DNA of 64,000 nucleotides, taken from positions 104,076-168,075 of IMG/VR virus record IMGVR_UViG_3300014208_000030; one strand, written 5' to 3'. Below are positions 8,850 to 54,580 of the stretch, piece after piece. Position 1 is the stretch's first letter. The number at the start of each line of letters is the position of its first letter. The notes beneath the pieces are model-generated. The model searched no databases. It was not told the origin of the DNA and saw only the letters and a program-made list of their open reading frames with translations. Source of the stretch: a virus (lineage: Duplodnaviria; Heunggongvirae; Uroviricota; Caudoviricetes). Both the position numbers and the translations under genes were made by a program.

Positions 8850-8891
8850 AATTTCTATTGTTATTTTAAAACAAGACTTCCGCCACATTTA

Positions 8892-10783: not shown

Positions 10784-10784
10784 T

Positions 10785-11171
10785 TTATTTCTCAATGATC
10801 TTGCGGCCGTGGGTTAAGTTAAAAAATTTTTTGGTTGCTGGTATCCATTCTCGCCAAGTGTCTGCCCAAGGACTTCTTATGGTGAACAGCCACGTCACGC
10901 CGGTAGAATCCACTTTATGAAAATCGGTGCGGCGGGTGATGAACGGGCGAAATGGTTTATATTGCCTTACCTTACCATTAATCATGTGCTCTGTCAAGCT
11001 GCCTTTGATGATGAACGACCAACAATTGAAGGCGTGGGTGTGATAGGCTTGGCGGCTGTTCCCGTCAAACTTGAGCAGGGCAATGGAGAATAAGGATTTA
11101 CTCTCGATGAGCCAATAACCGGTGACGGTGGATTCGGCACCGCCGTCTTTGCCTTTGAATAATAATTTCAT
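10785..11171 (-). CDS. hypothetical protein (start moved to MKLLFKG)
   Basis: ATG 11171 follows the stop of the upstream gene by 1 nt. Confidence 0.45.
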   Translation of the reverse strand: MKLLFKGKDGGAESTVTGYWLIESKSLFSIALLKFDGNSRQAYHTHAFNCWSFIIKGSLTEHMINGKVRQYKPFRPFITRRTDFHKVDSTGVTWLFTIRSPWADTWREWIPATKKFFNLTHGRKIIEK

Positions 11172-20704: not shown

Positions 20705-20992
20705 TTATGTGTGCATATATAATGAGTCGTAGTCGGCACTGAATACAACACCACAGCGCAGCAGATAGATAACATCATCTTCGGTAGCGACTTCGGCAAA
20801 GTCATCACAGCTGGTTGAGAGATAGATAACATCATGCTCTGCTGCAGTAACCATATCGCCTTTTTCTGGGACTATCTGGTCTAGCTTAATAAACGCACAT
20901 ATATCTGGGCGGTGATGCAGCTTGTCCTCAACTCTATCAAATTCCAGATACTCACTTTCGTGGGTCTCGAATAACGCATATACATCAATCAT
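20705..20992 (-). CDS. hypothetical acidic protein (95 aa)
   Basis: ORF, 4-nt overlap with ligase gene end. Confidence 0.45.
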   Translation of the reverse strand: MIDVYALFETHESEYLEFDRVEDKLHHRPDICAFIKLDQIVPEKGDMVTAAEHDVIYLSTSCDDFAEVATEDDVIYLLRCGVVFSADYDSLYMHT

Positions 20993-27724: not shown

Positions 27725-30160
27725 CTATTTTAAATTGTAGCTTATGACTTTATAATCGAATTGATCTTTTGCATAATATCCTACTCGTTTCTCGAAATGG
27801 TCTAGGGTATGATTTTTGTAAGATTTATACGACATATCGTCCGCCAAATCGAACAGGTTACAAACATATTTCCCATTCCCCTTTCGCAGACCACGCCCAA
27901 CTGACTGCAAAACTTTTATCTTGCTCTTGTATGGTGATGCAAAAATAATATTGTCAATCCGCTTGATCGAAACACCGGTAGAAAATGTGCCATATGATGC
28001 AACTATCGTACAGTCATCTGTAGTCTCGGCAATCTGCCTAACAGCATCTCTGGACTCAACATCAACCTTGCCATGTATAAAGTGACAGTTACCAGCATCT
28101 TTTAGCAAATTGTAGATAGGCAGACCCTGCTTCCCGACGAATGTGAACAGTATTAGCGTATTACCTTTCAGAGAGTTCGCCAATCCGGCAATGAAGGCAT
28201 TTCTGCGCTCACTGGTGCATAGATAATCCATTTCTTGAGCATACGTAGCCTTGCTCCGAGCCATTGCCTTAGCAACTTCCTCGCGGTGCTTAATCAGGAT
28301 GCAGCTGATCTTCAGATTAGCGGCCTGACCGTTATCAATCAGTTCTCTGGTAGTTATAGTCTTAAATGCTTTCCCAAACAAACCCTCGATGACCAACCGG
28401 TTACATTTGCTGTCCTGCAAACTTCCGGTGAACCCGACTCGATAGGCGACATTGTGAGCCCTCTCCATAATATCGGTAATTGACTTAGATTTTGCAGTGT
28501 GGCAATTGCCTACTACAACAACAAAACCTTTTCTACGGACAATAATATTCCCAGACGGCACAGTAACGCAATGCACATTACCAGAATATTGGACGCGCTC
28601 TTTTTGCATCCCTTGCGTCCCTATGATATTGGTCTTCCGGATATATAATCTATGCACATCGGAAAACTTATCGCTCCTGCTATCTATCTGAATAGTTTTT
28701 CTTGCTATATATCCCGCTAGTACAGCAACGGTCTGATAAAAATCAACCGAGCACTCGGATGTGTTCGAATAGTAGTATCGATTCTCGCTGGATATGCTGC
28801 CATCCCAAATAACCATATACTCTATGATTTCTTTCGCCGTTTCGCTAGATAGTGTTGATACGTCAAAAAATGTAGATACATCCTTTGTCGCATAATCAAT
28901 ATTATATATACTAAACCGACGTTTTTCTTTGGTTTTCCCGTATGCTGGTATACTCTTCAGCTCATTATATGAAAACCCACCCTCAGCCATCAGTGCTAGG
29001 AACTCAGTTATTTTTCTTTCTTTAGAAAACTTAAACTGTAATACTTGTTTTCCGCCATCCCGACCAACAATACATCCGTCTGCTTGGAGTGCAATCATAA
29101 GCTTTTGTTTTGGTGTAAGTGGTCCAGAATCGCCTACGGCAAGCCCAGCCCCATATAGATTACATAAGGCATTAAAATTAACTTCTGCCGCAGTTACTTT
29201 TTTGTCAACATAGCCGTGCTTCTGTGTTCGCCTAATTAGCATATCATGGTTTGGAGTTACTAAAAGGTCTATTCTACTATCACTACTTATATGTACTAGC
29301 TCACCATCATAGTGCTTAGTGATATATCTAAGTGGCTTAACGAATGATATATTACCACAATCGTACTGAGCAACATCCGCAACCTCGCTCAATTCATCGA
29401 ATCGAACAAATCCTCTGTTTGTCAATATTTCTGTATCTGGAGAGAAGCACTCATCCTGAACAATCATATCGAACTGCTCATAATATGAGATTGGCATTTT
29501 TGCCATCGATTGGTAGGTAGTGAAGGTCAGTTGCTTATCGGTCTGCTTCTCCTGCCCAGAGTAGATCATGTGGCTTCTACCCTCAACATCCCATCCGCTT
29601 ACGCTAGAATAGTCAATGAAATCGGACTTCATTTGCGCCACCAGACCGACGGTTGGGAATATCAATAATACACGCTTCACTTCACCGATAGCTATCAGAT
29701 ATCTGATTGTGCTAAAGATAATCAGAGATTTCCCCGACGAAGTGGGGCTCTCGATGGTCGCCCTACGGTTGTCTAGAATATGTTTTATGGCGTCGACTTG
29801 GTAGTCATATACTGTGATAGGGTTTCCGGCAGAGTGCAACCGAAGAACATCGGCAATGTATTTTTCGATGATGGCTCTATCGTTGTCCACGACAGGATGT
29901 ACATCCTCATCATACTCTACTGTATAGCCAGCCTGCGCAGCGAATTCGAGAATGTGATAGAACAGGCCAGCATAAATGTTGCGAGTACCGGCGTTGAGGA
30001 GCCTGATTGTGCCATTCCACAACCCATGCTTATATGCCGGTGTAAACTTTGCACCTTCAACATCAAACGTGAAATGCGCAGCCATTTCGACAATAACACA
30101 TTTCTCGGCATCAATGTGCACATATACTTCGTTAAGTTTTCGAATTCGGATATCAGCCAT
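27725..30160 (-). CDS. uvsW: UvsW-like DExH (SF2) DNA helicase interrupted by an in-frame intein
   Basis: Walker A SPTSSGKS; extein blocks recalled to match T4 UvsW (KCNRLVIEGLFGKAFKTITTRELIDNGQAANLKI, TIVASYGTFSTGVSIKRI, VLQSVGRGLRK); motif II reads IVQDE|C...N|CHTAKS. Confidence 0.9.
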   Translation of the reverse strand: MADIRIRKLNEVYVHIDAEKCVIVEMAAHFTFDVEGAKFTPAYKHGLWNGTIRLLNAGTRNIYAGLFYHILEFAAQAGYTVEYDEDVHPVVDNDRAIIEKYIADVLRLHSAGNPITVYDYQVDAIKHILDNRRATIESPTSSGKSLIIFSTIRYLIAIGEVKRVLLIFPTVGLVAQMKSDFIDYSSVSGWDVEGRSHMIYSGQEKQTDKQLTFTTYQSMAKMPISYYEQFDMIVQDECFSPDTEILTNRGFVRFDELSEVADVAQYDCGNISFVKPLRYITKHYDGELVHISSDSRIDLLVTPNHDMLIRRTQKHGYVDKKVTAAEVNFNALCNLYGAGLAVGDSGPLTPKQKLMIALQADGCIVGRDGGKQVLQFKFSKERKITEFLALMAEGGFSYNELKSIPAYGKTKEKRRFSIYNIDYATKDVSTFFDVSTLSSETAKEIIEYMVIWDGSISSENRYYYSNTSECSVDFYQTVAVLAGYIARKTIQIDSRSDKFSDVHRLYIRKTNIIGTQGMQKERVQYSGNVHCVTVPSGNIIVRRKGFVVVVGNCHTAKSKSITDIMERAHNVAYRVGFTGSLQDSKCNRLVIEGLFGKAFKTITTRELIDNGQAANLKISCILIKHREEVAKAMARSKATYAQEMDYLCTSERRNAFIAGLANSLKGNTLILFTFVGKQGLPIYNLLKDAGNCHFIHGKVDVESRDAVRQIAETTDDCTIVASYGTFSTGVSIKRIDNIIFASPYKSKIKVLQSVGRGLRKGNGKYVCNLFDLADDMSYKSYKNHTLDHFEKRVGYYAKDQFDYKVISYNLK
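28505..29449 (-). mobile_element. intein (~315 aa) with LAGLIDADG-like homing endonuclease domain, inserted in helicase motif II (DE^CH)
   Basis: starts CFSPDTEILTNRGFV, ends ...GFVVVVGN followed by extein Cys; internal LYGAGLAVGDSG LAGLIDADG-like motif; extein junction rebuilds DECH. Confidence 0.8.
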
Positions 30161-40908: not shown

Positions 40909-41007
40909 ACACCTTGACATACACATCCTAATGTTGTATAGTATGCCTTCATGAAATTGGAGGCATAACATGCAAAACATCAAAACATCACCCCAACCAG
41001 ACTCTTT

Positions 41008-41634: not shown

Positions 41635-41662
41635 TTGACATATACGTAAAAGTACGTATAAT
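41635..41662 (+). promoter_or_regulatory. sigma70 promoter TTGACA-16-TATAAT with 8-bp inverted repeat (tatacgta/tacgtata) in the spacer
   Basis: perfect consensus hexamers. Confidence 0.6.
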
Positions 41663-41706: not shown

Positions 41707-41964
41707 ATGCCACACGCTAAAAAAAGATTTGAAGTAGAATTACAAATAAATGATCTCTCTACACAACGTGGCGCAATACTGGCGCATGCATCTATGCTGT
41801 ACCGAGAGCTTGACGATGTCTGCGCAGAATATTCGATGCTGATGGAGCGAATGGAAGATTTAGAAGATGCCATCGAGTATTTTGATTTCTGTGCCACCAG
41901 AGCAATGGTTAGCGAAGAAAAACTGATCAGCGGTATCGTAAAGCTTTGCCAAACCGGTAAATAA
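41707..41964 (+). CDS. hypothetical protein (85 aa)
   Basis: ORF downstream of the 41635 promoter. Confidence 0.45.
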   Translation: MPHAKKRFEVELQINDLSTQRGAILAHASMLYRELDDVCAEYSMLMERMEDLEDAIEYFDFCATRAMVSEEKLISGIVKLCQTGK

Positions 41965-42000: not shown

Positions 42001-42501
42001 ATGAATAATGAATACACATTTTTTTGGCGAGGCGTGTTCTCGCAGTGGAGCCCATCAAGATTCGTCTTTGAGGCGAAAGAATTTAACTGCGCCGAACAGG
42101 CAATGATGTACCATAAGGCAGTACTCTTTGGTGACTTCAATACTGCTGGCAAAATCATGGCAACACCATCCCCAAAAGACCAACAGGCACTTGGCCGCGA
42201 AGTAGCCAATTTCTGCCAAGCTACTTGGAATGCATTTGCCAGACAGCTAGTTGTCGACATCAGCGTTGCCAAATTTTCACAGAACAAAGGCTTGTGGGAA
42301 ATACTGGATGCTACCGGTAACACCACCTTGGTAGAAGCATCTCCAAAAGACAAAATCTGGGGAATTGGGTTGGCAGAAGAAGTTGCGAAGAAAACTCCTG
42401 CAGATCAGTGGGTCGGTACTAACTGGCTTGGTCTGGCGTTGACGGAAGCTAGAGAGATCATTCGCGAAAACAATTCGCAACAAAGCGATGGTATGAGCTA
42501 A
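42001..42501 (+). CDS. NADAR-domain (YbiA/DUF1768) protein
   Basis: FFWRGVFSQWSPS.F.......F...EQAMMYHKA.LFGD......I......P...K.LGREV..F....W.......V.......KF.QN..LWE.L..TG...LVEASP.D.IWGIGL matches the NADAR signature. Confidence 0.7.
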   Translation: MNNEYTFFWRGVFSQWSPSRFVFEAKEFNCAEQAMMYHKAVLFGDFNTAGKIMATPSPKDQQALGREVANFCQATWNAFARQLVVDISVAKFSQNKGLWEILDATGNTTLVEASPKDKIWGIGLAEEVAKKTPADQWVGTNWLGLALTEAREIIRENNSQQSDGMS

Positions 42502-43439
42502 TGGCGGATATCCATTACGGACGAAAACGTAAGGGCATGGTGAGAGAGCTTAATAGCAAGCTCTCTGCTTGGATCGATACTATCGATGATGAGGATGTCG
42601 TAGCTGCTGTTAAGCGTGATACTATCGTTACCGGTGGTTCCATCGCATCAATGTTGCTTGGCGAACCTATCAACGATTTTGATATCTATTTTCGCACTAA
42701 AGAGACAACATTGTTAGTTGCTCATTATTATGTCCGAAAATTCAATGATGCAATAGCGGAGAAGGCTGTGGTAATGCATAAGCCTTATGTTACCGAAAAA
42801 CCTATTATCAACTGCAAGGGTGTCGAGGAAGATCGGGTACTGATCTATATCAAGTCCGCTGGTGTTGCTGCCGAAGAGCAAAATACATACCAGTATTTTG
42901 AGATGCAGCCAAAGGAAATGGCAGAGGAATTTGCCAAATCGTTGGAAGAAAATAAAGCATCTGGTAAGGCACCATATCGCCCAGTGTTTCTGTCGGCTAA
43001 TGCAATAACATTGAGCAATGATGTTCAGCTAATTATCCGATTCTTTGGCGAGCCAGATAAGATTCATGATAACTTTGACTTCATGCATGCAATGTCCTAT
43101 TACGATTACGCTGCGCGAAACTTAGTGTTGCCAGCATCTGCATTAGAATGTTTGCTATCGCGCACTCTGGTATATGCTGGGTCACTATATCCAATGTGCT
43201 CAATATTCCGAATGAGGAAGTTTCTCGACCGAGGGTGGCGAATTAGTGCTGGTGAAATATTGAAGATCATGTGGCAAATCTCTGAACTTGATTTAAAAGA
43301 TCAAGCTGTTCTCCATGAACAGCTCACCGGTGTCGACGCAGCATACATGCACGAATTGCTCGATGCACTGAAGGATGTTGATGCAGATAAAATAAACTCT
43401 ACCTACGTGGCAGAGATAATTGACCGTATATTTAATTGA
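42501..43439 (+). CDS. Pol-beta superfamily nucleotidyltransferase-domain protein (312 aa)
   Basis: TGGSIASMLLGEPINDFDIYF = [GS]-x10-D-x-D NTase motif; no further assignment possible by eye. Confidence 0.5.
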   Translation: MADIHYGRKRKGMVRELNSKLSAWIDTIDDEDVVAAVKRDTIVTGGSIASMLLGEPINDFDIYFRTKETTLLVAHYYVRKFNDAIAEKAVVMHKPYVTEKPIINCKGVEEDRVLIYIKSAGVAAEEQNTYQYFEMQPKEMAEEFAKSLEENKASGKAPYRPVFLSANAITLSNDVQLIIRFFGEPDKIHDNFDFMHAMSYYDYAARNLVLPASALECLLSRTLVYAGSLYPMCSIFRMRKFLDRGWRISAGEILKIMWQISELDLKDQAVLHEQLTGVDAAYMHELLDALKDVDADKINSTYVAEIIDRIFN

Positions 43440-43446
43440 GGGGAAT

Positions 43447-43620
43447 ATGAAGATTTATTTCAAGTTTATTGGTCTGCTGTTGTTTTTGTTCGTCGATTGC
43501 GGCCTACTTATGCCATATCTATTCTCTCAGGAATCTGATATGGCGGTGATGCTTGGGGTGGTAGTTGCTATAGTCAACCCAGTAATTGTTTATTTGTATA
43601 TTAAATGGAGTCTTAAGTGA
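43447..43620 (+). CDS. small two-TM membrane protein (57 aa; start moved to MKIYFKF)
   Basis: SD gagggg before ATG 43447; overlaps SPFH gene start. Confidence 0.4.
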   Translation: MKIYFKFIGLLLFLFVDCGLLMPYLFSQESDMAVMLGVVVAIVNPVIVYLYIKWSLK

Positions 43621-44468
43621 AAAAAATATTATTAGTGATTATGGTAACGTTTCTGGCAGCATGCTCTTATGTAGAACCAGGATACGTCGGCATTAAAGTA
43701 AACAAATTGGGTGGCGACAAGGGCGTCAATTCTCAAGAGTTGGGCGTAGGCAGATATTGGATTGGTATGAACGAAGAGCTGTACACATTCCCAACATTTT
43801 CACAGAGTCAGATGTGGACTAAGGCTAAGACAGACGGCTCACCCAATGACGATTCATTCACATTTCAGACGAGAGAAGGCTTAAGCGTTAATGCTGATCT
43901 TGGTATCACATATGCAATTGATCCATCTAAGGTAACCGTTATCTTCCAGAAATATCGGAAAGGTATCGATGAAATTACCCATGTATACTTACGCAATATG
44001 GTTCGGGATGCTATTGTTACCGAGGCATCCAGCAGACCGATTGAGAGTGTGTATGGTGCCGGTAAAGCTGAGCTGATCGAATCAGTCCAGCGCCGAGTTG
44101 TCGCCGAAACACAATCTATCGGAATCATCATTGAGAAGATTTATCTCGTGGGTGATCTTAGACTTCCCGATGTAGTTACTGACGCTATCAATGCTAAGAT
44201 TGGCGCAACCCAGAAAGCAGCCCAGCGCGAAAACGAGGTTGCTCAATCTAGAGCCGAGGCAGAAAAGAAAATTGCAGAAGCCAAAGGTGAGGCAGACTCT
44301 AAACTCTTAGTGGCCGAAGCAGAAGCCAAAGCGATTAAGATCAAGGGTGATGCATTAAGCCAAAATCCTAAACTTGTAGAGCTCAGTGCTGTCGAAAAGT
44401 GGAATGGTGTATTACCAACATATATGATGGGGAACTCAACTCCTTTCGTAAATATCAAGCAGCAGTAA
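43617..44468 (+). CDS. SPFH/band-7 (stomatin/prohibitin-like) domain lipoprotein (GTG start)
   Basis: signal + lipobox LAACS; SPFH core YVGIKVNKLGG...; C-terminal Ala/Glu/Lys coiled coil. Confidence 0.65.
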   Translation: MKKILLVIMVTFLAACSYVEPGYVGIKVNKLGGDKGVNSQELGVGRYWIGMNEELYTFPTFSQSQMWTKAKTDGSPNDDSFTFQTREGLSVNADLGITYAIDPSKVTVIFQKYRKGIDEITHVYLRNMVRDAIVTEASSRPIESVYGAGKAELIESVQRRVVAETQSIGIIIEKIYLVGDLRLPDVVTDAINAKIGATQKAAQRENEVAQSRAEAEKKIAEAKGEADSKLLVAEAEAKAIKIKGDALSQNPKLVELSAVEKWNGVLPTYMMGNSTPFVNIKQQ

Positions 44469-44478
44469 CCAACCAAAA

Positions 44479-44505
44479 AGAGCCCGTTACGGGCTCTTTT
44501 CTTTT
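44479..44505 (+). terminator. rho-independent terminator (8-bp stem agagcccg/cgggctct, loop tta, U-tract)
   Basis: perfect hairpin followed by ttttctttt. Confidence 0.8.
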
Positions 44506-46223: not shown

Positions 46224-46580
46224 ATGGAAACCACACAAGAAAAAACATTTGAGATACTGGATGTTGGTAATTCTCAGCACAGGCTTACTATTACGCCAAG
46301 CAGAATTACTATTAAATTCAAAAAAGATACACTGCGCGAAGAACGAGACGAAGTCATCAGTTTCTTTATCGCAGTCTCACAGGATGAAGATATGCAAAAC
46401 TGTGAGTGCTCATTCCGAGGTTCGGCGACAGTAACCGGTACCGGTAAGCTGCATATTATTATGCACGATGGTAGTCATGGTCGCAGTACGATGAACTATC
46501 ACTATTACTATGATAATGTTAATAAAAAATTAGACGATAGTCTGTTATTTAAAAATAAGAAAGCGAGGATTGCAGCATGA
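46224..46580 (+). CDS. hypothetical protein (118 aa)
   Basis: ORF, 4-nt overlap with next gene. Confidence 0.45.
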   Translation: METTQEKTFEILDVGNSQHRLTITPSRITIKFKKDTLREERDEVISFFIAVSQDEDMQNCECSFRGSATVTGTGKLHIIMHDGSHGRSTMNYHYYYDNVNKKLDDSLLFKNKKARIAA

Positions 46581-47848
46581 TTACAATTAATTACCCTACC
46601 AACAGTGACTTAGGCACCGATGAAGTAGTAACATTCCACACATTTTCTGGTGGCGAAGAGCACGTTAACTTGAAGCGCAGAGAGTTCGACACAGAACCAA
46701 CTATCATCATTATTGCTCAGATACTAAATTCTGCAGATGTAATGCGCCTCCTACTAACAACAGATGCGCTACGTCGCCTATACACCAACGATATTGCTCT
46801 GGTTATGCCATATCTGCCATATGCCCGTCAGGATAGAGCCTGTGTTGAAGGAGATGCGTTCAGTTTGCAAGTATTTGCTAAACTGATTAATGCACAAGAT
46901 TATGATCAGGTGACCGTAGTAGATGCTCATAGTAGTGTTGCTGGCGATCTGTTCCGCAACTTCAATAGTATCCCGCAGGCGTCAGTGCTAGCAAATGTGC
47001 GTATTGGAATTGATGAGCGCATTGCCTTTATTGTTGCGCCCGATGCTGGTGCTGCCAAAAAGGCGGTTGATTGGCAGACACAGTGGAACAATATCCCATC
47101 AAATTATGCACCAACATTCTTCCTACAAGCAACCAAGAAACGGGACGAAACTGGAAACATAGTGGCGACAGAACTTAATGGTGTTAGCGAAGGCGCACTG
47201 AATGGTGCAACATGCCTGATTGTCGATGACATAATTGACGGCGGTCGCACCTACATTGAGCTGGCTAAAGTTTTGAAATGGGCGGGTGCCGGTAATATCT
47301 ACCTATATGCAACGCATGGCATTTTTAGCCGAGGCATCCAAGTACTCCTAGATGCCGGTATTACGAAAGTATTCACTACCGACTCATTCCCAGAAAAGGA
47401 TGATGGGCGAGTTATTGTTAAACGATTTTCAACTGAGAGAAGTAACTATATTATGCAATCAACAAAGAAAAAAGTATTTCTGGGTGGTACCTGTAATGGC
47501 AGCACATGGCGAGATACACTGATCCCACTACTCAATATCGATTTCTTCAATCCGGTCGTTGCCGATTGGACAGAGGCAGCTTACGAAGAAGAGCTCAAAC
47601 AAAGGGAAGAGTGTGACTTCTGTCTATATGTAATCACGGCAGAATCGAGCAGCATATATTCCATTGCCGAAGTAGTTGATGGCAGCAATAAACGCCCAAC
47701 AAAGACGGTATTCTGCTTTCTTGAAGATATGTATACCGACCACGAAGTTAGCGCACTTGGTAGAGTTGCTAAGATGGTAGCAGAAAATGGCGGACAGTCT
47801 TTCAATACATTAGGTAGTGTCGCAAGATACTTAAACGGAGCAGCGTAA
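46577..47848 (+). CDS. ribose-phosphate pyrophosphokinase (Prs)-like protein with extra C-terminal Rossmann-like domain; candidate ADPR-pyrophosphate synthetase (Adps)
   Basis: Prs motifs LVMPYLPYARQDR and CLIVDDIIDGGRT; 423 aa, C-terminal ~120 aa (VFLGGTCNGSTW...) unlike canonical Prs. Confidence 0.7.
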   Translation: MITINYPTNSDLGTDEVVTFHTFSGGEEHVNLKRREFDTEPTIIIIAQILNSADVMRLLLTTDALRRLYTNDIALVMPYLPYARQDRACVEGDAFSLQVFAKLINAQDYDQVTVVDAHSSVAGDLFRNFNSIPQASVLANVRIGIDERIAFIVAPDAGAAKKAVDWQTQWNNIPSNYAPTFFLQATKKRDETGNIVATELNGVSEGALNGATCLIVDDIIDGGRTYIELAKVLKWAGAGNIYLYATHGIFSRGIQVLLDAGITKVFTTDSFPEKDDGRVIVKRFSTERSNYIMQSTKKKVFLGGTCNGSTWRDTLIPLLNIDFFNPVVADWTEAAYEEELKQREECDFCLYVITAESSSIYSIAEVVDGSNKRPTKTVFCFLEDMYTDHEVSALGRVAKMVAENGGQSFNTLGSVARYLNGAA

Positions 47849-47850
47849 TC

Positions 47851-49653
47851 ATGCAATCAACAGCAATAAACCAAAAAGACGGCTATAAAATTGGTCACAA
47901 ACCATTTTACCCAGACCTGACAGAAGAAATTTATGGCAATCTTACTGCACGGTCGGGTCGACTGTCAAATATCAAGGGCACCAAAGGCGTCTATTTTGTC
48001 GGTTTACAGGCTCTATTAGCCGAATATTTTGTCAAAGAATGGAATGAAACATTTTTCCAGCGACCAAAAGAAGAAGTACTCGAAAAATATCAACGTCGGG
48101 TATCGAATTTCTTTGGGTATGAGATCGATATTTCGCACATTGCCGCACTACATGATTTGGGTTTCTTGCCAATACAGGTGAAGGCGATCCCAGAAGGCTC
48201 TTTCGTTCCATATGGTGTCCCAATGGTCACCTACAAAAACACGGTCAAGAACTTTGGCTGGGTTGCGCAGATGTGTGAAACCGTATTGTCATCAGAAACA
48301 TGGCAGGGGATCACATCGGCAACGACCTATATGGAGTTCAAAAAACTCTTTACCAAATTTGCCCTGAAAACAGGCACCCATTTGGCGTTTGTCCCGTACC
48401 AAGGTCATGACTTCAGTTTCCGAGGAATGGCTGGCAGACACGCTGCAGCGAAGTCTGGTTATGCAATATTAGCCTGTGGTAGCTTCGGAACCGATTGTTT
48501 ACCGGCAATTGACTTGGCGGAAGACTATTATTATGCAGATGTTACAAAAGAGATTGTCGGGCTGTCAATTACGGGAACTGAACACTCGGTAGCATCGGCA
48601 AACATCATCACTATTGAGGAGGCTTTCCGCAAAACTGGTGAGTGGGGTGGGCTTAGGTTTGAAGACCTTATTGATGATAGTTCGGATACAGATTATAAAA
48701 ACATCGCCGAAACAGCATTTATCCATCGTGTCATATCACAGGTTGCCCCAAGCGGCAAGGTAGCGTTAGTGTGTGACACATATAATTTTTGGAACGTAGT
48801 GACAAACAGCTTGCCAATACTCAAGGGAGAAATTATGGCAAGAGATGGTCAGGTGGTTATTCGCCCGGATTCTGGCGACCCAGTTCGCATGATCTGCGGT
48901 GGCGATTACGAAGTTATACGCCATGCTGATAATATAGAACAAGCAAAGCGGTATGCCTTAGATTCATTGGAAGAGTATGTTCGTGAAGATGCCGGTCATG
49001 GCGAATGTGGAATGATAGATTACGGTGACATCTTCAACTGGAATGGAAAATACTACCGAGCTGAGGCCGAATTTGAGTGGAACCGGTACGGCAAACAGTA
49101 CTACTTCATTGACGGCAGCAAGTTGCTATCATTTGAAGAAGTTGAGCTAAGTGCTGACCAGAAAGGTCTGATCGAATGTTTGTGGGAAACTTTTGGCGGC
49201 ACATTGACCGAAACAGGCCACAGAATGCTCGATTCACATATAGGTGCTATCTACGGTGATTCAATCACATATGAACGCGCCACTGAGATTCTGACGCGAC
49301 TAGAGGCCAAAAACTTTGCCAGTGGTAACATAGTTCTAGGCTTGGGCTCCTATTTGTTTCAGCTAGTGACGCGGGACACGCACGGTATGGCAATTAAAGG
49401 CACCCACATTGTAGTGGATGGCAAAGACGTACCGATTTTCAAAGACCCAATCACTGATGACGGTACTAAAAAGTCCGCAAAAGGATATATGGTCGTGGAG
49501 ACCGATGAGAATGGCGAATATTGCATGCGCGACATGGTATCCAGAAAAGAAGAGAAATATGGTGCATTACGAGTTGTATTCCGTGATGGCATACTGTATA
49601 ATGAAACAACCTTAGCAGAAACAAGAAAATTAACCGAGTTGAAACTATCATGA
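47851..49653 (+). CDS. nicotinamide phosphoribosyltransferase (Nampt/NadV)-like protein; candidate Namat
   Basis: N-terminal DGYKIGHKPFYP resembles the Nampt DSYK.tHy block; length 600 aa; immediately follows the Prs-like gene with 2-nt spacing. Confidence 0.65.
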   Translation: MQSTAINQKDGYKIGHKPFYPDLTEEIYGNLTARSGRLSNIKGTKGVYFVGLQALLAEYFVKEWNETFFQRPKEEVLEKYQRRVSNFFGYEIDISHIAALHDLGFLPIQVKAIPEGSFVPYGVPMVTYKNTVKNFGWVAQMCETVLSSETWQGITSATTYMEFKKLFTKFALKTGTHLAFVPYQGHDFSFRGMAGRHAAAKSGYAILACGSFGTDCLPAIDLAEDYYYADVTKEIVGLSITGTEHSVASANIITIEEAFRKTGEWGGLRFEDLIDDSSDTDYKNIAETAFIHRVISQVAPSGKVALVCDTYNFWNVVTNSLPILKGEIMARDGQVVIRPDSGDPVRMICGGDYEVIRHADNIEQAKRYALDSLEEYVREDAGHGECGMIDYGDIFNWNGKYYRAEAEFEWNRYGKQYYFIDGSKLLSFEEVELSADQKGLIECLWETFGGTLTETGHRMLDSHIGAIYGDSITYERATEILTRLEAKNFASGNIVLGLGSYLFQLVTRDTHGMAIKGTHIVVDGKDVPIFKDPITDDGTKKSAKGYMVVETDENGEYCMRDMVSRKEEKYGALRVVFRDGILYNETTLAETRKLTELKLS

Positions 49654-50606: not shown

Positions 50607-50680
50607 GCGGGTATAGCAAAACGGTTATGCAACTGGCTTCCACCCAGTTCACGGGAGTTCGACCCTCCCTACCCGCTCCA
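50607..50680 (+). tRNA. tRNA-Gly (anticodon TCC)
   Basis: hand-folded cloverleaf: acceptor gcgggta/tacccgc, anticodon stem actgg/ccagt loop cTTCCAc, T-arm gggag-ttcgacc-ctccc, 3' CCA encoded. Confidence 0.8.
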
Positions 50681-50702
50681 AATAACATAGGGAAGCATAA
50701 TA

Positions 50703-50936
50703 ATGGCAGTAGAAGTGAGAGTATTTGAACCTGATCCGGCACACATCTGCATTAGGAATGCTGGGAAGTGGTCACTGAGTATGAATCCAAATATGTTTGG
50801 TCGCGTAACTCATATTAGATATTTGAATGAGTTTGAGTGTGACCTCATCAATGGAGCAATAAAAGCCGCGCAGCGTGCAATGGATATAGCATCTGGAGTA
50901 CCTTCTGAAGCTGATCCTAACCGGATAGATAATTAA
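50703..50936 (+). CDS. hypothetical small protein between tRNA genes (77 aa)
   Basis: ORF only. Confidence 0.3.
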   Translation: MAVEVRVFEPDPAHICIRNAGKWSLSMNPNMFGRVTHIRYLNEFECDLINGAIKAAQRAMDIASGVPSEADPNRIDN

Positions 50937-50945
50937 AAAGTTTTT

Positions 50946-51021
50946 GCGCCAGTAGCTCAATGGTAGAGCGTTCCCCTCATAAGGGATTGGTTTTTGGTTC
51001 GAATCCAAACTCGGCGCACCA
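50946..51021 (+). tRNA. tRNA-Met/Ile2-like (anticodon CAT), acceptor stem with one bulged C
   Basis: D-arm gctc-aatggta-gagc, anticodon loop cuCAUaa, T-arm tttgg-ttcgaat-ccaaa, CCA encoded; acceptor gcgccag pairs with ct(c)ggcgc only if one C is bulged. Confidence 0.55.
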
Positions 51022-51027
51022 AATAAT

Positions 51028-51101
51028 AAGTCATTAGCTCAACGATAGAGCGGCTAGGTGCACTAGTAGATGGTGGGTTTAACTCCCATCATGGCTTGCC
51101 A
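51028..51101 (+). tRNA. tRNA-like element (anticodon arm unresolved)
   Basis: acceptor aagtcat/atggctt + g + CCA, D-arm gctc-aacgata-gagc, T-arm-like gtggg-tttaact-cccat; central region ctaggtgcactag is palindromic and gives no canonical 7-nt loop. Confidence 0.35.
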
Positions 51102-51426
51102 AATTAAGACTAAGTAGAAGCCTTTCCCTACGCACTAAGGAGAGGCAACAAATAATACGATTAGCTTGTCAGACTTAGAACTGTATATTCAACTCTCGAA
51201 CATGGTTGCTTCTAGTCGTATTTTTTGTTAGTGAATGCGTAGGCTGATACGCTGAGATTTGTCTCTCGTCGCAATCCATTTAATTGTGGCTCTAGCAACA
51301 GACATTAACTGAAATGATAAGCATGGGATCAGTACATGCCACCAACTTCAAATACCGTAAGAGGATAGTATTGTGTCTAAATTTAAAATAAGAGGACGGT
51401 GCAATTTTCATTAGTATATTTAACTA

Positions 51427-51960
51427 ATGGAGGTAGCAATGTTAATCGTAACACAAAGAAGCTTCACAACAAAGCACGATCAGGTTATTGGGTATTTTCA
51501 GGACATTCGTGCCATCTACGACCACTTTAGTGGTTTGTTTGGCAAATATGGTTTAGAGAACAGATTCTCCCATAACCAATTTGAGGTCGTAGTAACCGGT
51601 AGATACTGGTTATCTTGGCGAGAAGATATTACCGGCACCGAGCATGCAATGGTTATTACTAACCGGCAGGGTATCCGGTATAGCAAAGAGTTTGTTGCTG
51701 GGATATTTGCAAAGTACCGTAAAACGAAGTTCCAGTGGGGCTGGATACGTGGTACGAAAAGAAATTACCGGTGCTGCTATCGTAGTATAAGAACAACCCA
51801 AGAAATAAGACTTTCAGTGGGTGTTCTGAAAGAAGAAGGTGAACCAGTTTGGCGAACATCTAGAAATTATCATAACTTACCCAACAAATGGGATGAGATA
51901 CAGCATTTGGATGTTTGCAACCGGAACTGGAAGCGGTTTAGAAAAACACAATATAAATAG
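51427..51960 (+). CDS. hypothetical protein (177 aa)
   Basis: ORF; SD ggagg. Confidence 0.45.
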   Translation: MEVAMLIVTQRSFTTKHDQVIGYFQDIRAIYDHFSGLFGKYGLENRFSHNQFEVVVTGRYWLSWREDITGTEHAMVITNRQGIRYSKEFVAGIFAKYRKTKFQWGWIRGTKRNYRCCYRSIRTTQEIRLSVGVLKEEGEPVWRTSRNYHNLPNKWDEIQHLDVCNRNWKRFRKTQYK

Positions 51961-51979
51961 TATATAATGAGGCAGTGAA

Positions 51980-52168
51980 ATGAAAACCCTTTTCGTATGG
52001 ATGAAGTATTCTTGGCAAATCGTGGGACAATCCCTCGCAACTAAGAAGCATCGCAGACCAATAGTAAATGAGGCAGGATTCGTGGCACCGATTATCGTAC
52101 CACTTGGGTATATTGGTGTTATTTTGCAGATAGTTGTTGCGGCATATGTATTAAAAGTTATTTTTTGA
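51980..52168 (+). CDS. hypothetical small membrane protein (62 aa)
   Basis: hydrophobic C-terminus. Confidence 0.35.
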   Translation: MKTLFVWMKYSWQIVGQSLATKKHRRPIVNEAGFVAPIIVPLGYIGVILQIVVAAYVLKVIF

Positions 52169-52177
52169 AAATAAAGC

Positions 52178-52205
52178 TTGACAAGATGTAAAAAGTGTGT
52201 ATAAT
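52178..52205 (+). promoter_or_regulatory. sigma70 promoter aaagcTTGACA-16-TATAAT
   Basis: perfect hexamers upstream of tRNA-Ser. Confidence 0.65.
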
Positions 52206-52283
52206 GGTTGAATAGTTTGCATCACATATAAAGACGGCAATCTTTGTGGTGCGAGCCTTAGTTAAAAAATGATTTGATACGTG

Positions 52284-52291
52284 TATAAATA
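52284..52291 (+). promoter_or_regulatory. late promoter TATAAATA upstream of tRNA-Ser
   Basis: gtgTATAAATAaaag 12 nt before tRNA 5' end. Confidence 0.5.
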
Positions 52292-52302
52292 AAAGTAGAT
52301 AT

Positions 52303-52392
52303 GGAAATGTGGCAGAGCGGTTTATTGCACTGGTCTTGAAAACCAGCGGGGCTTAATCGCCTCCCAGAGTTCGAATCTCTGCGTTTCCGCCA
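52303..52392 (+). tRNA. tRNA-Ser (anticodon TGA), long variable arm
   Basis: acceptor ggaaatg/cgtttcc, anticodon stem ctggt/accag loop cuUGAaa, variable arm, T-arm cagag-ttcgaat-ctctg, CCA; similar in layout to E. coli tRNA-Ser. Confidence 0.8.
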
Positions 52393-52450
52393 TACAATGG
52401 CACGGTTTGTCAGTTTCTAGGTCTAAAAATGAGAAACTTCCACGAATAAT

Positions 52451-52525
52451 TGCGGTGTACATCAGAGGTAGATGAACTGGCTCATAACCAGAAAGACGGG
52501 AGTTCGAGTCTCTCCACCGCTACCA
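52451..52525 (+). tRNA. tRNA (anticodon CAT; Met or Ile-lysidine), U1-U72 mismatch
   Basis: acceptor tgcggtg/caccgct, D-arm catc-agaggta-gatg, anticodon loop cuCAUaa, T-arm gggag-ttcgagt-ctctc, CCA encoded. Confidence 0.6.
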
Positions 52526-52544
52526 GTTTTAAAGTAGTAAATTT

Positions 52545-52621
52545 CGGAATGTATTTCAGTCTGGTAGAATGAACCGTTTGGGGCGGTTCGGTCGTGGGTT
52601 CAAATCCCTCCATTCCGACCA
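52545..52621 (+). tRNA. tRNA-Pro (anticodon TGG)
   Basis: acceptor cggaatg/cattccg perfect, anticodon stem aaccg/cggtt loop uuUGGgg (G37), T-arm gtggg-ttcaaat-ccctc, CCA. Confidence 0.75.
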
Positions 52622-52639
52622 AACAAGGGATATCACGCT

Positions 52640-52735
52640 TAGTTACGTGCCATTTGGCATCGCGCACCCAGATATCCCACCAAATAAGTGTTATCACGCC
52701 TATTGCCAAATGGCTCGCGCACCATGATAGCACGA
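52640..52735. repeat. two ~35-bp direct repeats each containing palindrome tgccatttggca / tgccaaatggc + cgcgcac
   Basis: gatatcacgcttagttacgtgccatttggcatcgcgcaccc vs gttatcacgcctattgccaaatggctcgcgcacc. Confidence 0.6.
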
Positions 52736-53042
52736 TTAACACCAGCCATTACTCTTGGGCGTTATAATTAAGAGAGGTCTTAAGCTCATACCAGAATGAG
52801 AATTGGTACATATCGCATACCAGACAAACATCCGTGTAGAGGAGAGGTTACAAAATCGATATCGTGCCTGTATGTGTACGTAAACATCCCACTGGCTAGC
52901 AAATAGGGCTCTTGGGTGAAGCATACTAGACGGAGAATAAACAGCCTAGATGGGGGAGCGTTGGTGACGTTTAGCCCATCACTCTTATTTTAAAATAAGA
53001 GATAAATATAGCAAAATGAGTGAAGTATTTTCTCCAGCTAAG

Positions 53043-53114
53043 GCACAAGGTGTGCCGCCATCCTGTTAAGATGTGTGAGTTTGGTCCGATTCCAAAAGCT
53101 GGAGAAAATACTTT
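53043..53114 (+). tRNA. tRNA-Asn-like (anticodon GTT) embedded in a 16-bp extended inverted repeat; no CCA
   Basis: acceptor tccagct/agctgga, D-arm ggca-caaggtg-tgcc, anticodon loop cuGUUaa, T-arm tttgg-tccgatt-ccaaa; flanks gaagtattttctccagc / gctggagaaaatactt extend pairing. Confidence 0.5.
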
Positions 53115-53126
53115 ATATACAAAGAG

Positions 53127-54002
53127 TTACGGGTTAATATAATTCTCAACGAGTTTCACTAATTCTGAGTACTCGATACTAGATATTGTTTTCTTTTTAT
53201 TATTTTCTGTGTGCTGCATCAATTCACAATTTAGTGGGTGTGTGATATAAAATGCATCATAGTTATATTTTAGTGCATCATGCACGGATACTCTATGGTC
53301 TCTCGATATCCCATCTGGGTTCCACTTTTGGCCTTTGAAATTATTCGGCGAGAACCACCCGAATTTATCTATTAAGGTCAGATCGAACAGGTCTGGATAG
53401 TGGTACACATTGAATGTAAACTTATATCGTTGCTTTTCTGCTGGTGAATATATGGTAACGCACTTTGTACAGTATTTCGTCGCCCTCCTTTGGGATATGA
53501 TAATGCCACAGTGCTGACATTTGCACATATATAACTTAGAAAATACACCAGATGCGGTTTTGTTAGTTTCTCGGTTTCGTACTGGACTGCGGCGTTGCGC
53601 TACTCGCTTACGTACAGGCTTTGGTAATTTAGCTTTGCGTTCTGGCTTGCTCTTGATTTTGTGTGCAGATTTATGATAGGCCGATACGCTTTTAGATACT
53701 TTATCCTTGTGGGCATCAGTAATAACATAGCCATGTTTTATTCTGTCGGTATTATTAAATGTAGCTGCACATGATGCATTACAAAATTTTCGATTAGAAT
53801 CTAATGGCATATTACAATGAATGCAGTATTTAATATTAGATTGAAATCTAGGAAGCCGATCGACCGATATCTCTTTCTTAGTAATAATACAGCAGCATCT
53901 TAGTTGTGGAAGTTTACCAGCTGATATGCCGTGAATACGAGAATGCCCATTAAGAGAGCGAATTGATGGAAATATTTTACTACAGTGTTCGCATTTGAAC
54001 AT
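53127..54002 (-). CDS. HNH endonuclease with N-terminal C2H2 zinc finger (homing-endonuclease-like) in the tRNA region
   Basis: FKCEHCSKIFPSIRSLNGHSRIH = C2H2; C-terminal GISRDHRVSVHDA...HPLNCELMQHTENNKK = HNH; basic KxK-rich linker. Confidence 0.7.
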   Translation of the reverse strand: MFKCEHCSKIFPSIRSLNGHSRIHGISAGKLPQLRCCCIITKKEISVDRLPRFQSNIKYCIHCNMPLDSNRKFCNASCAATFNNTDRIKHGYVITDAHKDKVSKSVSAYHKSAHKIKSKPERKAKLPKPVRKRVAQRRSPVRNRETNKTASGVFSKLYMCKCQHCGIIISQRRATKYCTKCVTIYSPAEKQRYKFTFNVYHYPDLFDLTLIDKFGWFSPNNFKGQKWNPDGISRDHRVSVHDALKYNYDAFYITHPLNCELMQHTENNKKKTISSIEYSELVKLVENYINP

Positions 54003-54108
54003 TGGATACCCGATATAAATAATATTGTGTAGGACAGTTCAGTTACCCGATACTGAATTGATTAATATTGGTCGTATTAATCTAACTGCATATATTTATA
54101 TAAATATG

Positions 54109-54137
54109 TTGACAATATATCGAATATGGTATATACT
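54109..54137 (+). promoter_or_regulatory. sigma70 promoter TTGACA-17-TATACT (overlapping TATAAATA boxes on both strands at 54095-54106)
   Basis: seen in sequence. Confidence 0.55.
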
Positions 54138-54203
54138 CTTAAAAGTTAACAATATACCGGACAAGCATGCGAAAGCTGCTCAAATCGTTCCGGTTTTTAT
54201 TAT

Positions 54204-54284
54204 TGTCATGTAGCTCAGTGGTAGAGCAGTGGCGTAGTCGCACTACGCTTCCGTACGGTGGGTCAACACCACCCATGACAGCCC
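54204..54284 (+). tRNA. tRNA-like element (perfect acceptor stem tgtcatg/catgaca, canonical D-arm), anticodon arm atypical
   Basis: D-arm gctc-agtggta-gagc; T-arm ggtgg-gtcaaca-ccacc; 29 nt between D- and T-arms form gcgtag-tcgca-ctacgc hairpin; anticodon not assignable by hand. Confidence 0.4.
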
Positions 54285-54300
54285 AATTTAGCGAAATAAC

Positions 54301-54373
54301 AATTGCATGTCGGACGCAAGAACCGTATATTCAATTTTCAAATATGATTGCATCAGTTGTTATTTCGGTAAAT
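54301..54373 (+). ncRNA. candidate stable RNA: 11-bp inverted repeat cgaaataacaa/ttgttatttcg enclosing ~50 nt
   Basis: between two tRNA genes, as for T4 small stable RNAs in its tRNA cluster. Confidence 0.25.
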
Positions 54374-54431
54374 CGCCACGCAAGTGGTCTTACAGATAGT
54401 GGATATCCAAGATGAACCCACTTAAAACAAT

Positions 54432-54506
54432 TCTTGGAATTGCTGGTGAAGCATAAGTGGCGATGCACATGACTTGTAATCATGAGAACGCGGGTCGGAA
54501 CCGCGC
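54432..54506 (+). tRNA. tRNA-Thr (anticodon TGT)
   Basis: acceptor gctggtg/caccagc, D-arm gcat-aagtggcg-atgc, anticodon stem catga/tcatg loop cuUGUaa, T-arm cgcgg-gtcggaa-ccgcg, CCA. Confidence 0.8.
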
Positions 54507-54580
54507 ACCAGCTCCAACCTTTAAATGTGTCTTAAATCATGTTTTAAATCAAACTTAAATCAAAACGGAATCAAAATTAT
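54507..54580 (+). promoter_or_regulatory. AU-rich repetitive leader of gene 32 (UUAAAUC(A) x4): candidate gp32 translational autoregulation site
   Basis: ctttaaatg / cttaaatca / tttaaatca / cttaaatca repeats between tRNA-Thr and ATG 54581. Confidence 0.45.

What the first reader, a model, noticed from the sequence alone, without database searches (positions are those of the whole stretch)
42001..43439. NADAR-domain protein next to a stand-alone nucleotidyltransferase in an accessory island
42001-42501 carries the NADAR/YbiA (DUF1768) signature along its whole length. As I recall, NADAR domains have been reported to hydrolyse ADP-ribose from guanine bases in DNA, reversing DarT-type toxin modification. 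A phage-borne copy is therefore a plausible counter-defence against DarTG-like systems. The adjacent 312-aa protein has only a minimal Pol-beta NTase motif (GS-x10-DxD) and no recognisable partner domain. The pair is driven by a consensus sigma70 promoter (41635).
Basis: partly seen in the sequence, partly recalled or inferred. Interest (0 to 1): 0.75.

Follow-up and report, generated by a model that had tools for sequence, protein, structure and literature searches.

The report
Two known-family phage counter-defence genes
A T4-like phage carries, side by side, an ADP-ribose-removing NADAR enzyme and a short relative of the anti-Gabija protein Gad2; both families are already known as phage counter-defences, and the two genes are neighbours by accident rather than a working pair.

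Summary
Both ORFs sit at the stated coordinates. The first is a strong NADAR (Pfam E=8e-45) and a perfect sigma-70 consensus lies at 41635.

Phage NADARs that strip DarT1-type ADP-ribose from DNA were published in 2023-24 (T4 AdfN, NADAR-Bas32, NADAR-Bas60). This copy keeps all mapped active-site residues and is 32% identical to the validated Bas60-type enzyme.

The 312-aa "stand-alone NTase" is not an orphan. It belongs to the Gad2 family (PF26128, Gabija anti-defence 2). Its homology to an experimentally verified Gad2 is direct (BLASTP 1e-14, hhalign 98.4%). Its fold is class II CCA-adding/poly(A)-polymerase-like, not CD-NTase or MNT. It is a short form without Gad2's C-terminal half, and an intact short-form copy occurs in SBSphiC, a phage reported to be Gabija-sensitive. 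Anti-Gabija activity is therefore plausible but unproven.

The two genes are not a conserved pair: none of 87 other loci with the NTase has a NADAR nearby. They lie in a variable early region that also holds a NARP1-like NAD+ rebuilding operon. I rate this as new members of known kinds, of modest interest.

The parts
41635..41662 (+). Sigma-70-type promoter-like site, TTGACA-16-TATAAT, probably an early promoter of the unit
   Evidence: 12/12 match to consensus; sequence read directly. Function is inferred, not shown.
41707..41964 (+). 85-aa ORF of unknown function, first gene after the promoter
   Evidence: ORF list; no Pfam or PHROG hit; called as a gene on the identical public contigs.
42001..42501 (+). 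NADAR-domain protein (166 aa), YbiA-type subfamily; predicted ADP-ribosyl N-glycohydrolase
   Evidence: PF08719 E=8.1e-45; TIGR02464 141.7 bits against a 73.7 cut-off; phrog_1017. Aligns to solved NADAR 8bau with E32, K39, R66, W76, E112, D117 and W120 at the mapped ligand/catalytic positions. 32% identity, E=5e-23 to Bas61 NADAR.
42501..43439 (+). Short-form Gad2-family nucleotidyltransferase (312 aa) with a class II NTase head+neck fold
43420..43620 (+). Small membrane protein (57-66 aa depending on start codon)
   Evidence: phrog_1130 'membrane protein' E=3.5e-10; gene calls on identical contigs.
43617..44468 (+). SPFH/Band 7 lipoprotein, last gene of the putative unit
   Evidence: PF01145 E=1.9e-22; phrog_200 'lipoprotein' E=1.3e-81.
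44476..44500 (+). Intrinsic-terminator-like hairpin followed by a T run
   Evidence: 11-bp stem with 6 GC pairs, then CTTTTATCCA. Consensus match only.
46577..47848 (+). Context: PRPP-synthetase-like protein (Adps-like) with a fused C-terminal nucleoside 2-deoxyribosyltransferase-like domain
   Evidence: PF13793, PF14572, PF00156 and PF15891; phrog_619. The layout matches the first gene of NARP1.
47851..49653 (+). Context: Nampt-like protein (Namat-like), second gene of a NARP1-like operon
   Evidence: PF04095 NAPRTase on the identical public gene. It directly follows the Prs-like gene, as in NARP1.

Best explanation
The region holds two independent phage counter-defence genes. They happen to be neighbours and are co-transcribed early, from a consensus promoter, in a variable stretch of a T4-like phage genome.

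Gene 1 is a YbiA-type NADAR. Its most likely activity is hydrolysis of the N-glycosidic bond between ADP-ribose and guanine in DNA. That would undo the replication block imposed by DarT1-type toxins and release free ADP-ribose.

Gene 2 is a short-form member of the Gad2 nucleotidyltransferase family. Its catalytic core has the head and neck of class II CCA-adding/poly(A) polymerases and keeps the metal-binding DxD. It most likely transfers a nucleotide onto a nucleic-acid 3' end or a small acceptor and so disables a host defence. Gabija is the only target documented for this family.

What is shown: family membership, fold, residue conservation, lack of conserved pairing and operon-like layout. 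What is inferred: both enzymatic activities, both defence targets and early expression.
For: NADAR: strong Pfam and NCBIfam hits. The seven residues that contact ADP-ribose or act in catalysis in the P. nicotianae NADAR structure (E43, K50, R79, W89, E125, D130, W133) align to E32, K39, R66, W76, E112, D117 and W120. It is 32% identical, E=5e-23, to the Bas61 NADAR. Bas60/61/62 are reported to encode the NADAR-Bas60 protein that restores plaquing on DarTG1 cells and neutralises DarT1. YbiA-subfamily NADARs also hydrolyse guanine-ADPr in vitro.

Independence: no NADAR within about 6 kb of the NTase in 84 loci by tblastn, nor by phmmer with both the window NADAR and T4 AdfN in 87 loci. The 80%-identical relative lacks it. 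Conversely, the gene beside Bas61's NADAR is unrelated to the NTase.

Context: perfect promoter and a terminator-like site, TAATG junction, and a NARP1-like operon 3 kb downstream.
Against: No activity was measured. The NADAR also scores above the cut-off for the riboflavin-intermediate N-glycosidase model TIGR02464. It carries the YbiA-type Glu rather than the Asp of DarG1 or the His of T4-type phage NADARs, so its physiological substrate could be a small molecule. Its host, and whether that host has DarT1, are unknown.

The NTase lacks Gad2's C-terminal ~190 residues, and nobody has tested a short form. Bacillus phage SBSphiC has an intact short-form copy yet is listed among phages that B. 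cereus Gabija protects against. Gad2's mechanism is itself unknown, so the proposed chemistry is inference from fold alone. tRNA genes lie within about 6 kb of the homologue in 16 of 50 loci, which hints at an RNA-related role.
Confidence: 0.6

Rival explanations
1. The NTase is a tRNA 3'-end repair or tailing enzyme: a minimal CCA-adding or A-adding enzyme. It would service phage or host tRNAs, for example after damage by tRNA-targeting defences, rather than act as a Gabija inhibitor.
For: All significant structural matches are class II tRNA nucleotidyltransferases or poly(A) polymerase. Some depositors annotate homologues as 'tRNA nucleotidyltransferase' or 'pcnB'. 16 of 50 related loci have tRNA genes within about 6 kb. 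The window has a tRNA cluster at 50.6-54.5 kb and an RNA ligase.
Against: No hit to PF01743 at any threshold. Only motif A aligns to E. coli Cca, at about 1% probability; motifs B-E were not recovered. The protein has 312 aa against about 400 or more, and only about 165 residues superpose, so the tRNA-binding body and tail are missing. All six Rfam-supported phage tRNAs already encode CCA. The temperate 42-kb phage NYA-2014a has a 49.5%-identical copy and no tRNA gene at all. The only tested relatives act against a DNA-targeting system. No matched control was run for the tRNA proximity.
Confidence: 0.2
2. The NADAR works on small molecules rather than DNA. It would hydrolyse ADP-ribose-derived immune signals or related N-glycosides (or reactive riboflavin intermediates), possibly feeding ADP-ribose to the nearby NARP1-like NAD+ rebuilding enzymes.
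For: TIGR02464 'riboflavin biosynthesis intermediates N-glycosidase' scores 141.7 bits against a 73.7 cut-off. The protein has the YbiA-type diagnostic Glu. [quoted passage not shown] A NARP1-like operon lies 4 kb downstream, and the phage uses an NAD-dependent DNA ligase.
Against: Every phage NADAR tested so far counters DarTG1 and is guanine-ADPr specific. YbiA-family members also hydrolyse guanine-ADPr. The two roles are not mutually exclusive. The NADAR is absent from the close relative, so it is not an integral part of a NAD+ pathway.
Confidence: 0.2
3. One reading: NADAR and NTase form a dedicated two-gene module that acts together against DarTG-like ADP-ribosylating defences.
For: One-base stop/start overlap (TAATG) and a shared promoter. 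Both are nucleic-acid or nucleotide-directed enzymes.
Against: Adjacency is confined to contigs identical to the window. It is absent in 87 other NTase loci, even with HMM-level searches for two NADAR types, and in the 80%-identical relative. NADARs occur in 717 phage records against 62 for the NTase. Validated NADARs work alone, and a validated Gad2 homologue inhibits Gabija when expressed alone with the system.
Confidence: 0.05

Closest known systems
NADAR^Bas60 / NADAR^Bas32 (phage NADARs shown to neutralise DarTG1; Johannesman et al. 2024, PMC11257639)
   Same: Same Pfam family PF08719. 32% identity, E=5e-23 over 164 residues to the Bas61 copy. Stand-alone single-domain protein in a large lytic phage.
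   Different: Sequence is well diverged. This copy was not tested and its host is unknown. The Bas60-type protein was described as closest to non-YbiA-like bacterial NADARs, whereas this one scores above the YbiA/ribofla_fusion cut-off.
AdfN (T4 gp30.3), the anti-DarT1 NADAR of T-even phages
   Same: Same predicted role and genomic setting: a T4-like phage with a non-essential early gene. Same superfamily fold according to the literature.
   Different: No significant pairwise similarity. AdfN belongs to a different Pfam family, PF08010. T4-type phage NADARs have His at the diagnostic position where this protein has Glu. It is not an orthologue.
Gad2 (Gabija anti-defence 2; SPbetaL7 ORF_159 and the B. 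laterosporus prophage homologue; Yirmiya et al., doi 10.1101/2023.05.01.538930)
   Same: Homologous NTase core: BLASTP 1e-14, hhalign 98.4% over 176 columns. Shared invariant GG, NDxDxYF, FDF, YP and RxxK. Same Pfam tag PF26128. Phage-borne.
   Different: 312 aa against 394-400 aa. It lacks the C-terminal ~190 residues, has an extra N-terminal helix and an insertion of roughly 75-100 residues in the head domain. It falls in sister PHROG 4400 rather than 18122. Activity is untested, and the SBSphiC datum argues for caution.
Class II tRNA nucleotidyltransferases / bacterial poly(A) polymerase I (PF01743)
   Different: No sequence-family membership. Motifs B-E were not recovered. There are no body or tail domains.
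NARP1 (Adps + Namat NAD+ reconstitution pathway), for the neighbouring genes
   Same: A Prs-like gene immediately followed by a Nampt-like gene, the defining layout of NARP1.
   Different: The Prs-like protein here carries an additional C-terminal Nuc_deoxyri_tr2-like domain. Membership of the Adps clade was not tested.

Membership tests
NADAR superfamily (PF08719) | Profile match above the curated threshold over the whole domain | tested here: met
   153.4 bits against a 35.1 cut-off, residues 11-155 matched to profile 11-163 of 163.
NADAR superfamily (PF08719) | ADP-ribose-binding and catalytic residues (Pn NADAR E43, K50, R79, W89, E125, D130, W133) | tested here: met
   The alignment to 8bau places E32, K39, R66, W76, E112, D117 and W120 at those positions (residue list from PMC11543638; chain index is the paper's numbering + 2).
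NADAR superfamily (PF08719) | Hydrolysis of guanine-linked ADP-ribose on DNA | not testable with these tools
   Needs a biochemical assay.
YbiA subfamily of NADAR | Glu at the position of Pn E125 (Asp in the BC4488/DarG1 type, His in T4-type phage NADARs) | tested here: met
   E112 aligns there. TIGR02464 scores 141.7 bits against 73.7.
AdfN / T4 gp30.3 (PF08010) | Sequence similarity to gp30.3 | tested here: not met
   BLASTP finds only a 15-residue misaligned segment. The window protein hits PF08719, not PF08010, while T4 gp30.3 hits PF08010.
DarG1 antitoxin (DarT1-associated NADAR) | Encoded next to a DarT1 ADP-ribosyltransferase; Asp at the diagnostic position | tested here: not met
   The neighbours are UvsY, two small unknown ORFs and the NTase, with no ART domain. 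The diagnostic residue is Glu.
Gad2 (PF26128) | Profile membership | tested here: met
   The precomputed PF26128 tag is on the identical protein and on all 120 listed homologues. The local Pfam copy lacks the model, so I could not re-score it.
Gad2 (PF26128) | Demonstrable homology to an experimentally verified Gad2 | tested here: met
   B. laterosporus Gad2: BLASTP 1e-14 and 6e-07; hhalign 98.4%, E=5e-15. Verified Gad2 proteins hit phrog_4400 at 5e-29 and 1.6e-26.
Gad2 (PF26128) | Conserved NTase catalytic carboxylates | tested here: met
   D59, D61 and D193 are invariant across short forms and both Gad2 sequences.
Gad2 (PF26128) | Full-length architecture (about 400 aa with the C-terminal domain) | tested here: not met
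   The match covers only Gad2 residues 17-194/207. The window protein ends there.
Gad2 (PF26128) | Inhibition of Gabija defence | not testable with these tools
   Indirect counter-hint: SBSphiC has an intact short-form copy but is listed as targeted by B. cereus VD045 Gabija.
Class II CCA-adding enzyme / poly(A) polymerase (PF01743) | Head+neck fold | tested here: met
Class II CCA-adding enzyme / poly(A) polymerase (PF01743) | Sequence profile and motifs B-E (ribose and base selection) | tested here: not met
   No PF01743 hit even at E<=10. No PDB sequence hit with single sequence or profile. hhalign to E. coli Cca aligns motif A only, at about 1% probability.
Class II CCA-adding enzyme / poly(A) polymerase (PF01743) | Body and tail domains that hold the tRNA | tested here: not met
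   The protein has 312 aa, and about 165 residues superpose on targets of 372-517 aa.
CD-NTase (cGAS/DncV-like) | CD-NTase fold | tested here: not met
MNT / MenT-type minimal NTases | Minimal NTase fold match | tested here: not met
NARP1 (neighbouring genes 46577-49653) | Prs-like gene adjacent to a Nampt-like gene | tested here: met
   PF13793, PF14572 and PF00156, then PF04095, 3 bp apart. Definition taken.
NARP1 (neighbouring genes 46577-49653) | Placement in the Adps clade / ADPR-PP chemistry | not tested
   No phylogeny or comparison with a verified Adps or Namat was made.

The most novel reading that the evidence does not exclude
The short-form Gad2-like proteins (phrog_4400; more than 2,400 homologues in public data, 441 confirmed stretches in viral contigs) may be a distinct enzyme class. 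They would use a stripped-down class II tRNA-nucleotidyltransferase core, without the usual base-selection motifs, to tag a nucleic-acid 3' end (tRNA or DNA) or to make a nucleotide product. That activity would disarm a defence other than the Gabija tested so far. The frequent proximity to tRNA genes and the Gabija sensitivity of SBSphiC would then both be explained.
Probability: 0.15. Interest if true: 0.6.

Novelty: new member of a known kind. Interest (0 to 1): 0.3.

Why it matters
As it stands, this is a tidy example of a phage stacking counter-defences in one variable early region: a NADAR against DNA ADP-ribosylation, a Gad2-type enzyme, and a NARP1-like NAD+ rebuilding operon. That is useful for annotation but adds no new principle.

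The practical value is a correction. Proteins of this short Gad2-like group are currently deposited as 'hypothetical', 'tRNA nucleotidyltransferase' or 'poly(A) polymerase I'. They should be read as Gad2-family NTases of unknown chemistry.

The open question worth an experiment is what Gad2-type enzymes do. The short form is abundant, compact and well modelled, so it may be the easier handle on a mechanism that the field still lists as unknown.

Tried and rejected
- Near-identical DNA in the phage collection: none, so no annotated reference genome exists for this phage.
- Local Pfam, NCBIfam and PADLOC scans of the NTase: no hits. This turned out to be a library gap, not a property of the protein, because validated Gad2 also gets no local Pfam hit.
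- Sequence searches of the PDB with the protein and with a 63-sequence profile: no hits. Only fold comparison placed it.
- CD-NTase and MNT/MenT readings: rejected on fold scores.
- Conserved NADAR-NTase pairing: rejected. I also checked whether the gene abutting the validated Bas61 NADAR is an NTase relative. It is not; it has CapR/T5orf172 domains.
- Orthology of the NADAR to T4 AdfN: rejected.
- The NADAR as part of a defence system: it hits PADLOC PDC-M42C (1.9e-36) and weakly the DS32_2 anti-phage NADAR model (41 bits against a 240 cut-off). I did not pursue this, because the gene sits in a lytic T4-like phage with no partner genes of such systems.
- Biosynthetic need for CCA addition: rejected, since all six Rfam-supported tRNAs encode CCA. 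The only CCA-less 'tRNA-Asn' from ARAGORN is not supported by Rfam.
- AFDB fold search: library unavailable. The viral library gave only uncharacterised matches.
- Literature search for a Gad2 mechanism or for phage CCA-adding-like counter-defences: nothing beyond 'mechanism yet to be elucidated'.

Full report
OBSERVATION. They share one base between the TAA stop and the ATG start (TAATG). The first is an unambiguous NADAR domain: PF08719, E=8.1e-45, covering residues 11-155. The site at 41635-41662 is a perfect TTGACA-16-TATAAT. An 85-aa ORF lies between that site and the NADAR. A small membrane protein and an SPFH lipoprotein follow the NTase before a terminator-like hairpin at 44476-44500. 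The likely transcription unit therefore has five genes, not two.

GENOME CONTEXT. The window comes from a T4-like phage. It encodes UvsY, a gp59-like helicase loader, gp32, a gp55-like late sigma factor, baseplate and tail genes, and a tRNA cluster. No isolate in the phage collection is close at the DNA level. gp32 is at most about 45-49% identical to cyanophage and Xanthomonas-phage proteins. The identical NTase is on public metagenomic contigs of about 168 kb. The host is unknown.

THE NADAR.
- Active site. It aligns with the solved P. nicotianae NADAR (8bau, E=1.2e-10) and more weakly with E. coli YbiA. The structural paper lists E43, K50, R79, W89, E125, D130 and W133 as the residues that hold ADP-ribose or act in catalysis. 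Allowing for a two-residue offset between the chain index and the paper's numbering, these align to E32, K39, R66, W76, E112, D117 and W120. The active site is intact.
- Subfamily. The position that distinguishes subfamilies is Glu in YbiA-type, Asp in DarT1-associated and His in T4-type phage NADARs. Here it is Glu. In agreement, the protein scores above the cut-off of the YbiA-type NCBIfam model.
- Relation to T4 AdfN. It has no significant similarity to T4 AdfN/gp30.3, which belongs to another Pfam family.
- Relation to a validated phage NADAR. It is 32% identical (E=5e-23) to bas61_0107 of BASEL phage EmilieFrey/Bas61. Johannesman et al. report that Bas60, Bas61 and Bas62 encode the NADAR-Bas60 protein. 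They also report that this protein, like NADAR-Bas32 and AdfN, restores phage growth on DarTG1 cells.
- Prevalence. NADARs are common in phages: 717 records match this one, and a survey found them in 27% of myoviruses.

THE 312-AA PROTEIN.
- Family tag. Local Pfam, NCBIfam and PADLOC gave nothing. PHROGs placed it in phrog_4400, of unknown function. A homologue search returned 2,401 proteins, all listed ones carrying a precomputed tag PF26128. The gene tables of the encoding contigs name that family 'Gad2'.
- What Gad2 is. Gad2 is Gabija anti-defence 2. Deleting it makes phage SPbetaL7 Gabija-sensitive, and a B. laterosporus prophage homologue abolishes Gabija defence. AlphaFold predicted a nucleotidyltransferase domain. 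A 2026 review still lists its mechanism as unknown.
- Direct test of the tag. I took the verified sequences from the paper's supplementary tables. BLASTP against the B. laterosporus protein gives E=1e-14 (residues 169-292 against 80-207) and 6e-07 over the catalytic strand. A profile of 63 homologues aligns to it with 98.4% probability over 176 columns. Both verified Gad2 proteins fall in phrog_18122 and cross-hit phrog_4400 at about 1e-26 to 1e-29. The window protein shows the mirror image.
- Why local Pfam was silent. Neither verified Gad2 hits anything in the local Pfam copy, which explains the initial negative.
- Shared core and differences. A joint alignment shows GG, N-D-x-D-x-Y-F, D193 (the 'FDF' motif), P231, R237 and K240 invariant in both forms. 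The window protein is a short form. It stops where Gad2's C-terminal ~190 residues begin, and it has an extra N-terminal helix and an insertion of roughly 75-100 residues.

IS IT A PAIR? No.
- Of 441 confirmed homologous stretches in viral contigs, I examined the best 80 plus four isolates. None has a NADAR within about 6 kb by tblastn.
- Repeating the test with phmmer over 8,465 ORFs, using both the window NADAR and T4 AdfN as queries, found NADARs only on the three contigs identical to the window.
- The 80%-identical relative has the NTase after UvsY and three small ORFs, with no NADAR. Three other T4-like loci have UvsY, then the NTase, then gp59.
- In the other direction, the gene beside Bas61's NADAR is unrelated to the NTase.

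The stop/start overlap shows co-expression, not co-function.

WHAT KEEPS THE NTASE INTERESTING. Two observations do not fit a simple 'it is Gad2' label.
- Bacillus phage SBSphiC has an intact 361-aa short-form copy with all motifs. Yet a review table lists SBSphiC among the phages that B. cereus VD045 Gabija protects against.
- 16 of 50 related loci carry tRNA genes within about 6 kb of the homologue. I had no matched control, and both features tend to lie in variable early regions, so this is only a hint.

Against a tRNA-servicing role:
- Sulfitobacter phage NYA-2014a (42 kb, with an integrase) has a 49.5%-identical copy and no tRNA genes.
- All six Rfam-supported tRNAs of this window already encode CCA.

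SURROUNDINGS. Three kilobases downstream, a Prs-like gene is directly followed by a Nampt-like gene. This is the layout of NARP1, which rebuilds NAD+ from ADP-ribose and nicotinamide. Here the Prs-like protein carries an extra nucleoside-2-deoxyribosyltransferase-like domain. The phage also has an NAD-dependent DNA ligase, an RNA ligase and an anti-restriction protein. The stretch from uvsY to the tRNA cluster is therefore best described as a variable early region enriched in counter-defence genes.

VERDICT. Both genes are new members of known counter-defence families: a YbiA-type phage NADAR and a short-form Gad2-family NTase. They are neighbours by accident. The residual novelty is the uncharacterised chemistry and target of the short Gad2-like form. 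Interest 0.3.

Noticed in passing
window 46577-49653: NARP1-like operon: a Prs-like gene directly followed by a 600-aa Nampt-like gene. The Prs-like protein carries an extra C-terminal Nuc_deoxyri_tr2 (PF15891) domain (residues 297-381) that the NARP1 description I read does not mention. The 80%-identical relative has a 286-aa Prs-like gene without this domain and without an adjacent Nampt-like gene.
   Followed up: partly
window 50607-54513: The tRNA callers disagree. ARAGORN reports 7 tRNAs. Rfam supports 5 of them and adds a tRNA (anticodon TGT by eye, Thr) at 54442-54513, but does not support ARAGORN's tRNA-Asn (53032-53105, no CCA) or its 83-nt tRNA-Ala(cgc) (54203-54285). All six Rfam-supported tRNAs encode CCA. 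By eye there are further tRNA-like stretches ending in CCA at about 51030-51103 and 52622-52720 that neither tool calls.
   Followed up: partly
loci L006, L009, L013, L016-L018, L020, L030, L031, L038, L045-L047, L051, L082, L086: tRNA genes lie within about 6 kb of the Gad2-like NTase homologue in 16 of 50 viral loci scanned. L020 has 10 tRNAs and a tmRNA-like gene. No matched control was possible.
   Followed up: partly
L090 1498-2583 (Bacillus phage SBSphiC, LT960610.1): An intact 361-aa short-form Gad2-like gene sits in an unannotated record of a phage that is listed as sensitive to B. cereus Gabija. It is a natural test case for whether the short form inhibits Gabija.
   Followed up: partly
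window 27725-30160 (- strand): An 810-aa helicase ORF whose N- and C-terminal parts hit DNA-helicase PHROGs. Residues ~207-553 instead hit families labelled ribonucleotide reductase and thymidylate synthase. That pattern suggests an intein or other inserted element.
   Followed up: no
window 20989-22845 and 23535-24557 (- strand): An NAD-dependent DNA ligase (phrog_3869, E=1.5e-116) and an RNA ligase (phrog_968, E=6.3e-79). T4 itself uses an ATP-dependent ligase. An NAD-dependent ligase would make this phage directly vulnerable to NAD+ depletion, which fits the NARP1-like operon.
   Followed up: no
window 53127-54002 (- strand): A 291-aa Cys-rich ORF (phrog_23051, unknown function) on the opposite strand inside the tRNA region, preceded by a TTGACA...TATACT promoter-like sequence near 54110 on the + strand for the next tRNA. 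It is possibly a mobile or homing element.
   Followed up: no
window 738-1247, 7038-8888, 9971-10795: An anti-restriction-like protein (phrog_2059), a 616-aa HNH/endonuclease VII-like protein with repeated internal modules, and a DHH phosphoesterase. These may be further counter-defence or nucleotide-signal-degrading genes elsewhere in the window.
   Followed up: no
tool libraries: The local Pfam-A copy does not contain PF26128 (Gad2), although the precomputed tables do. A 'no Pfam hit' from the scan is therefore not evidence that a protein is unclassified.
   Followed up: yes
window 40914-40942: A second near-perfect promoter-like site (TTGACA-17-TATAGT, 11/12) lies just upstream of uvsY. Closely spaced early-type promoters therefore run through this region.
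   Followed up: no
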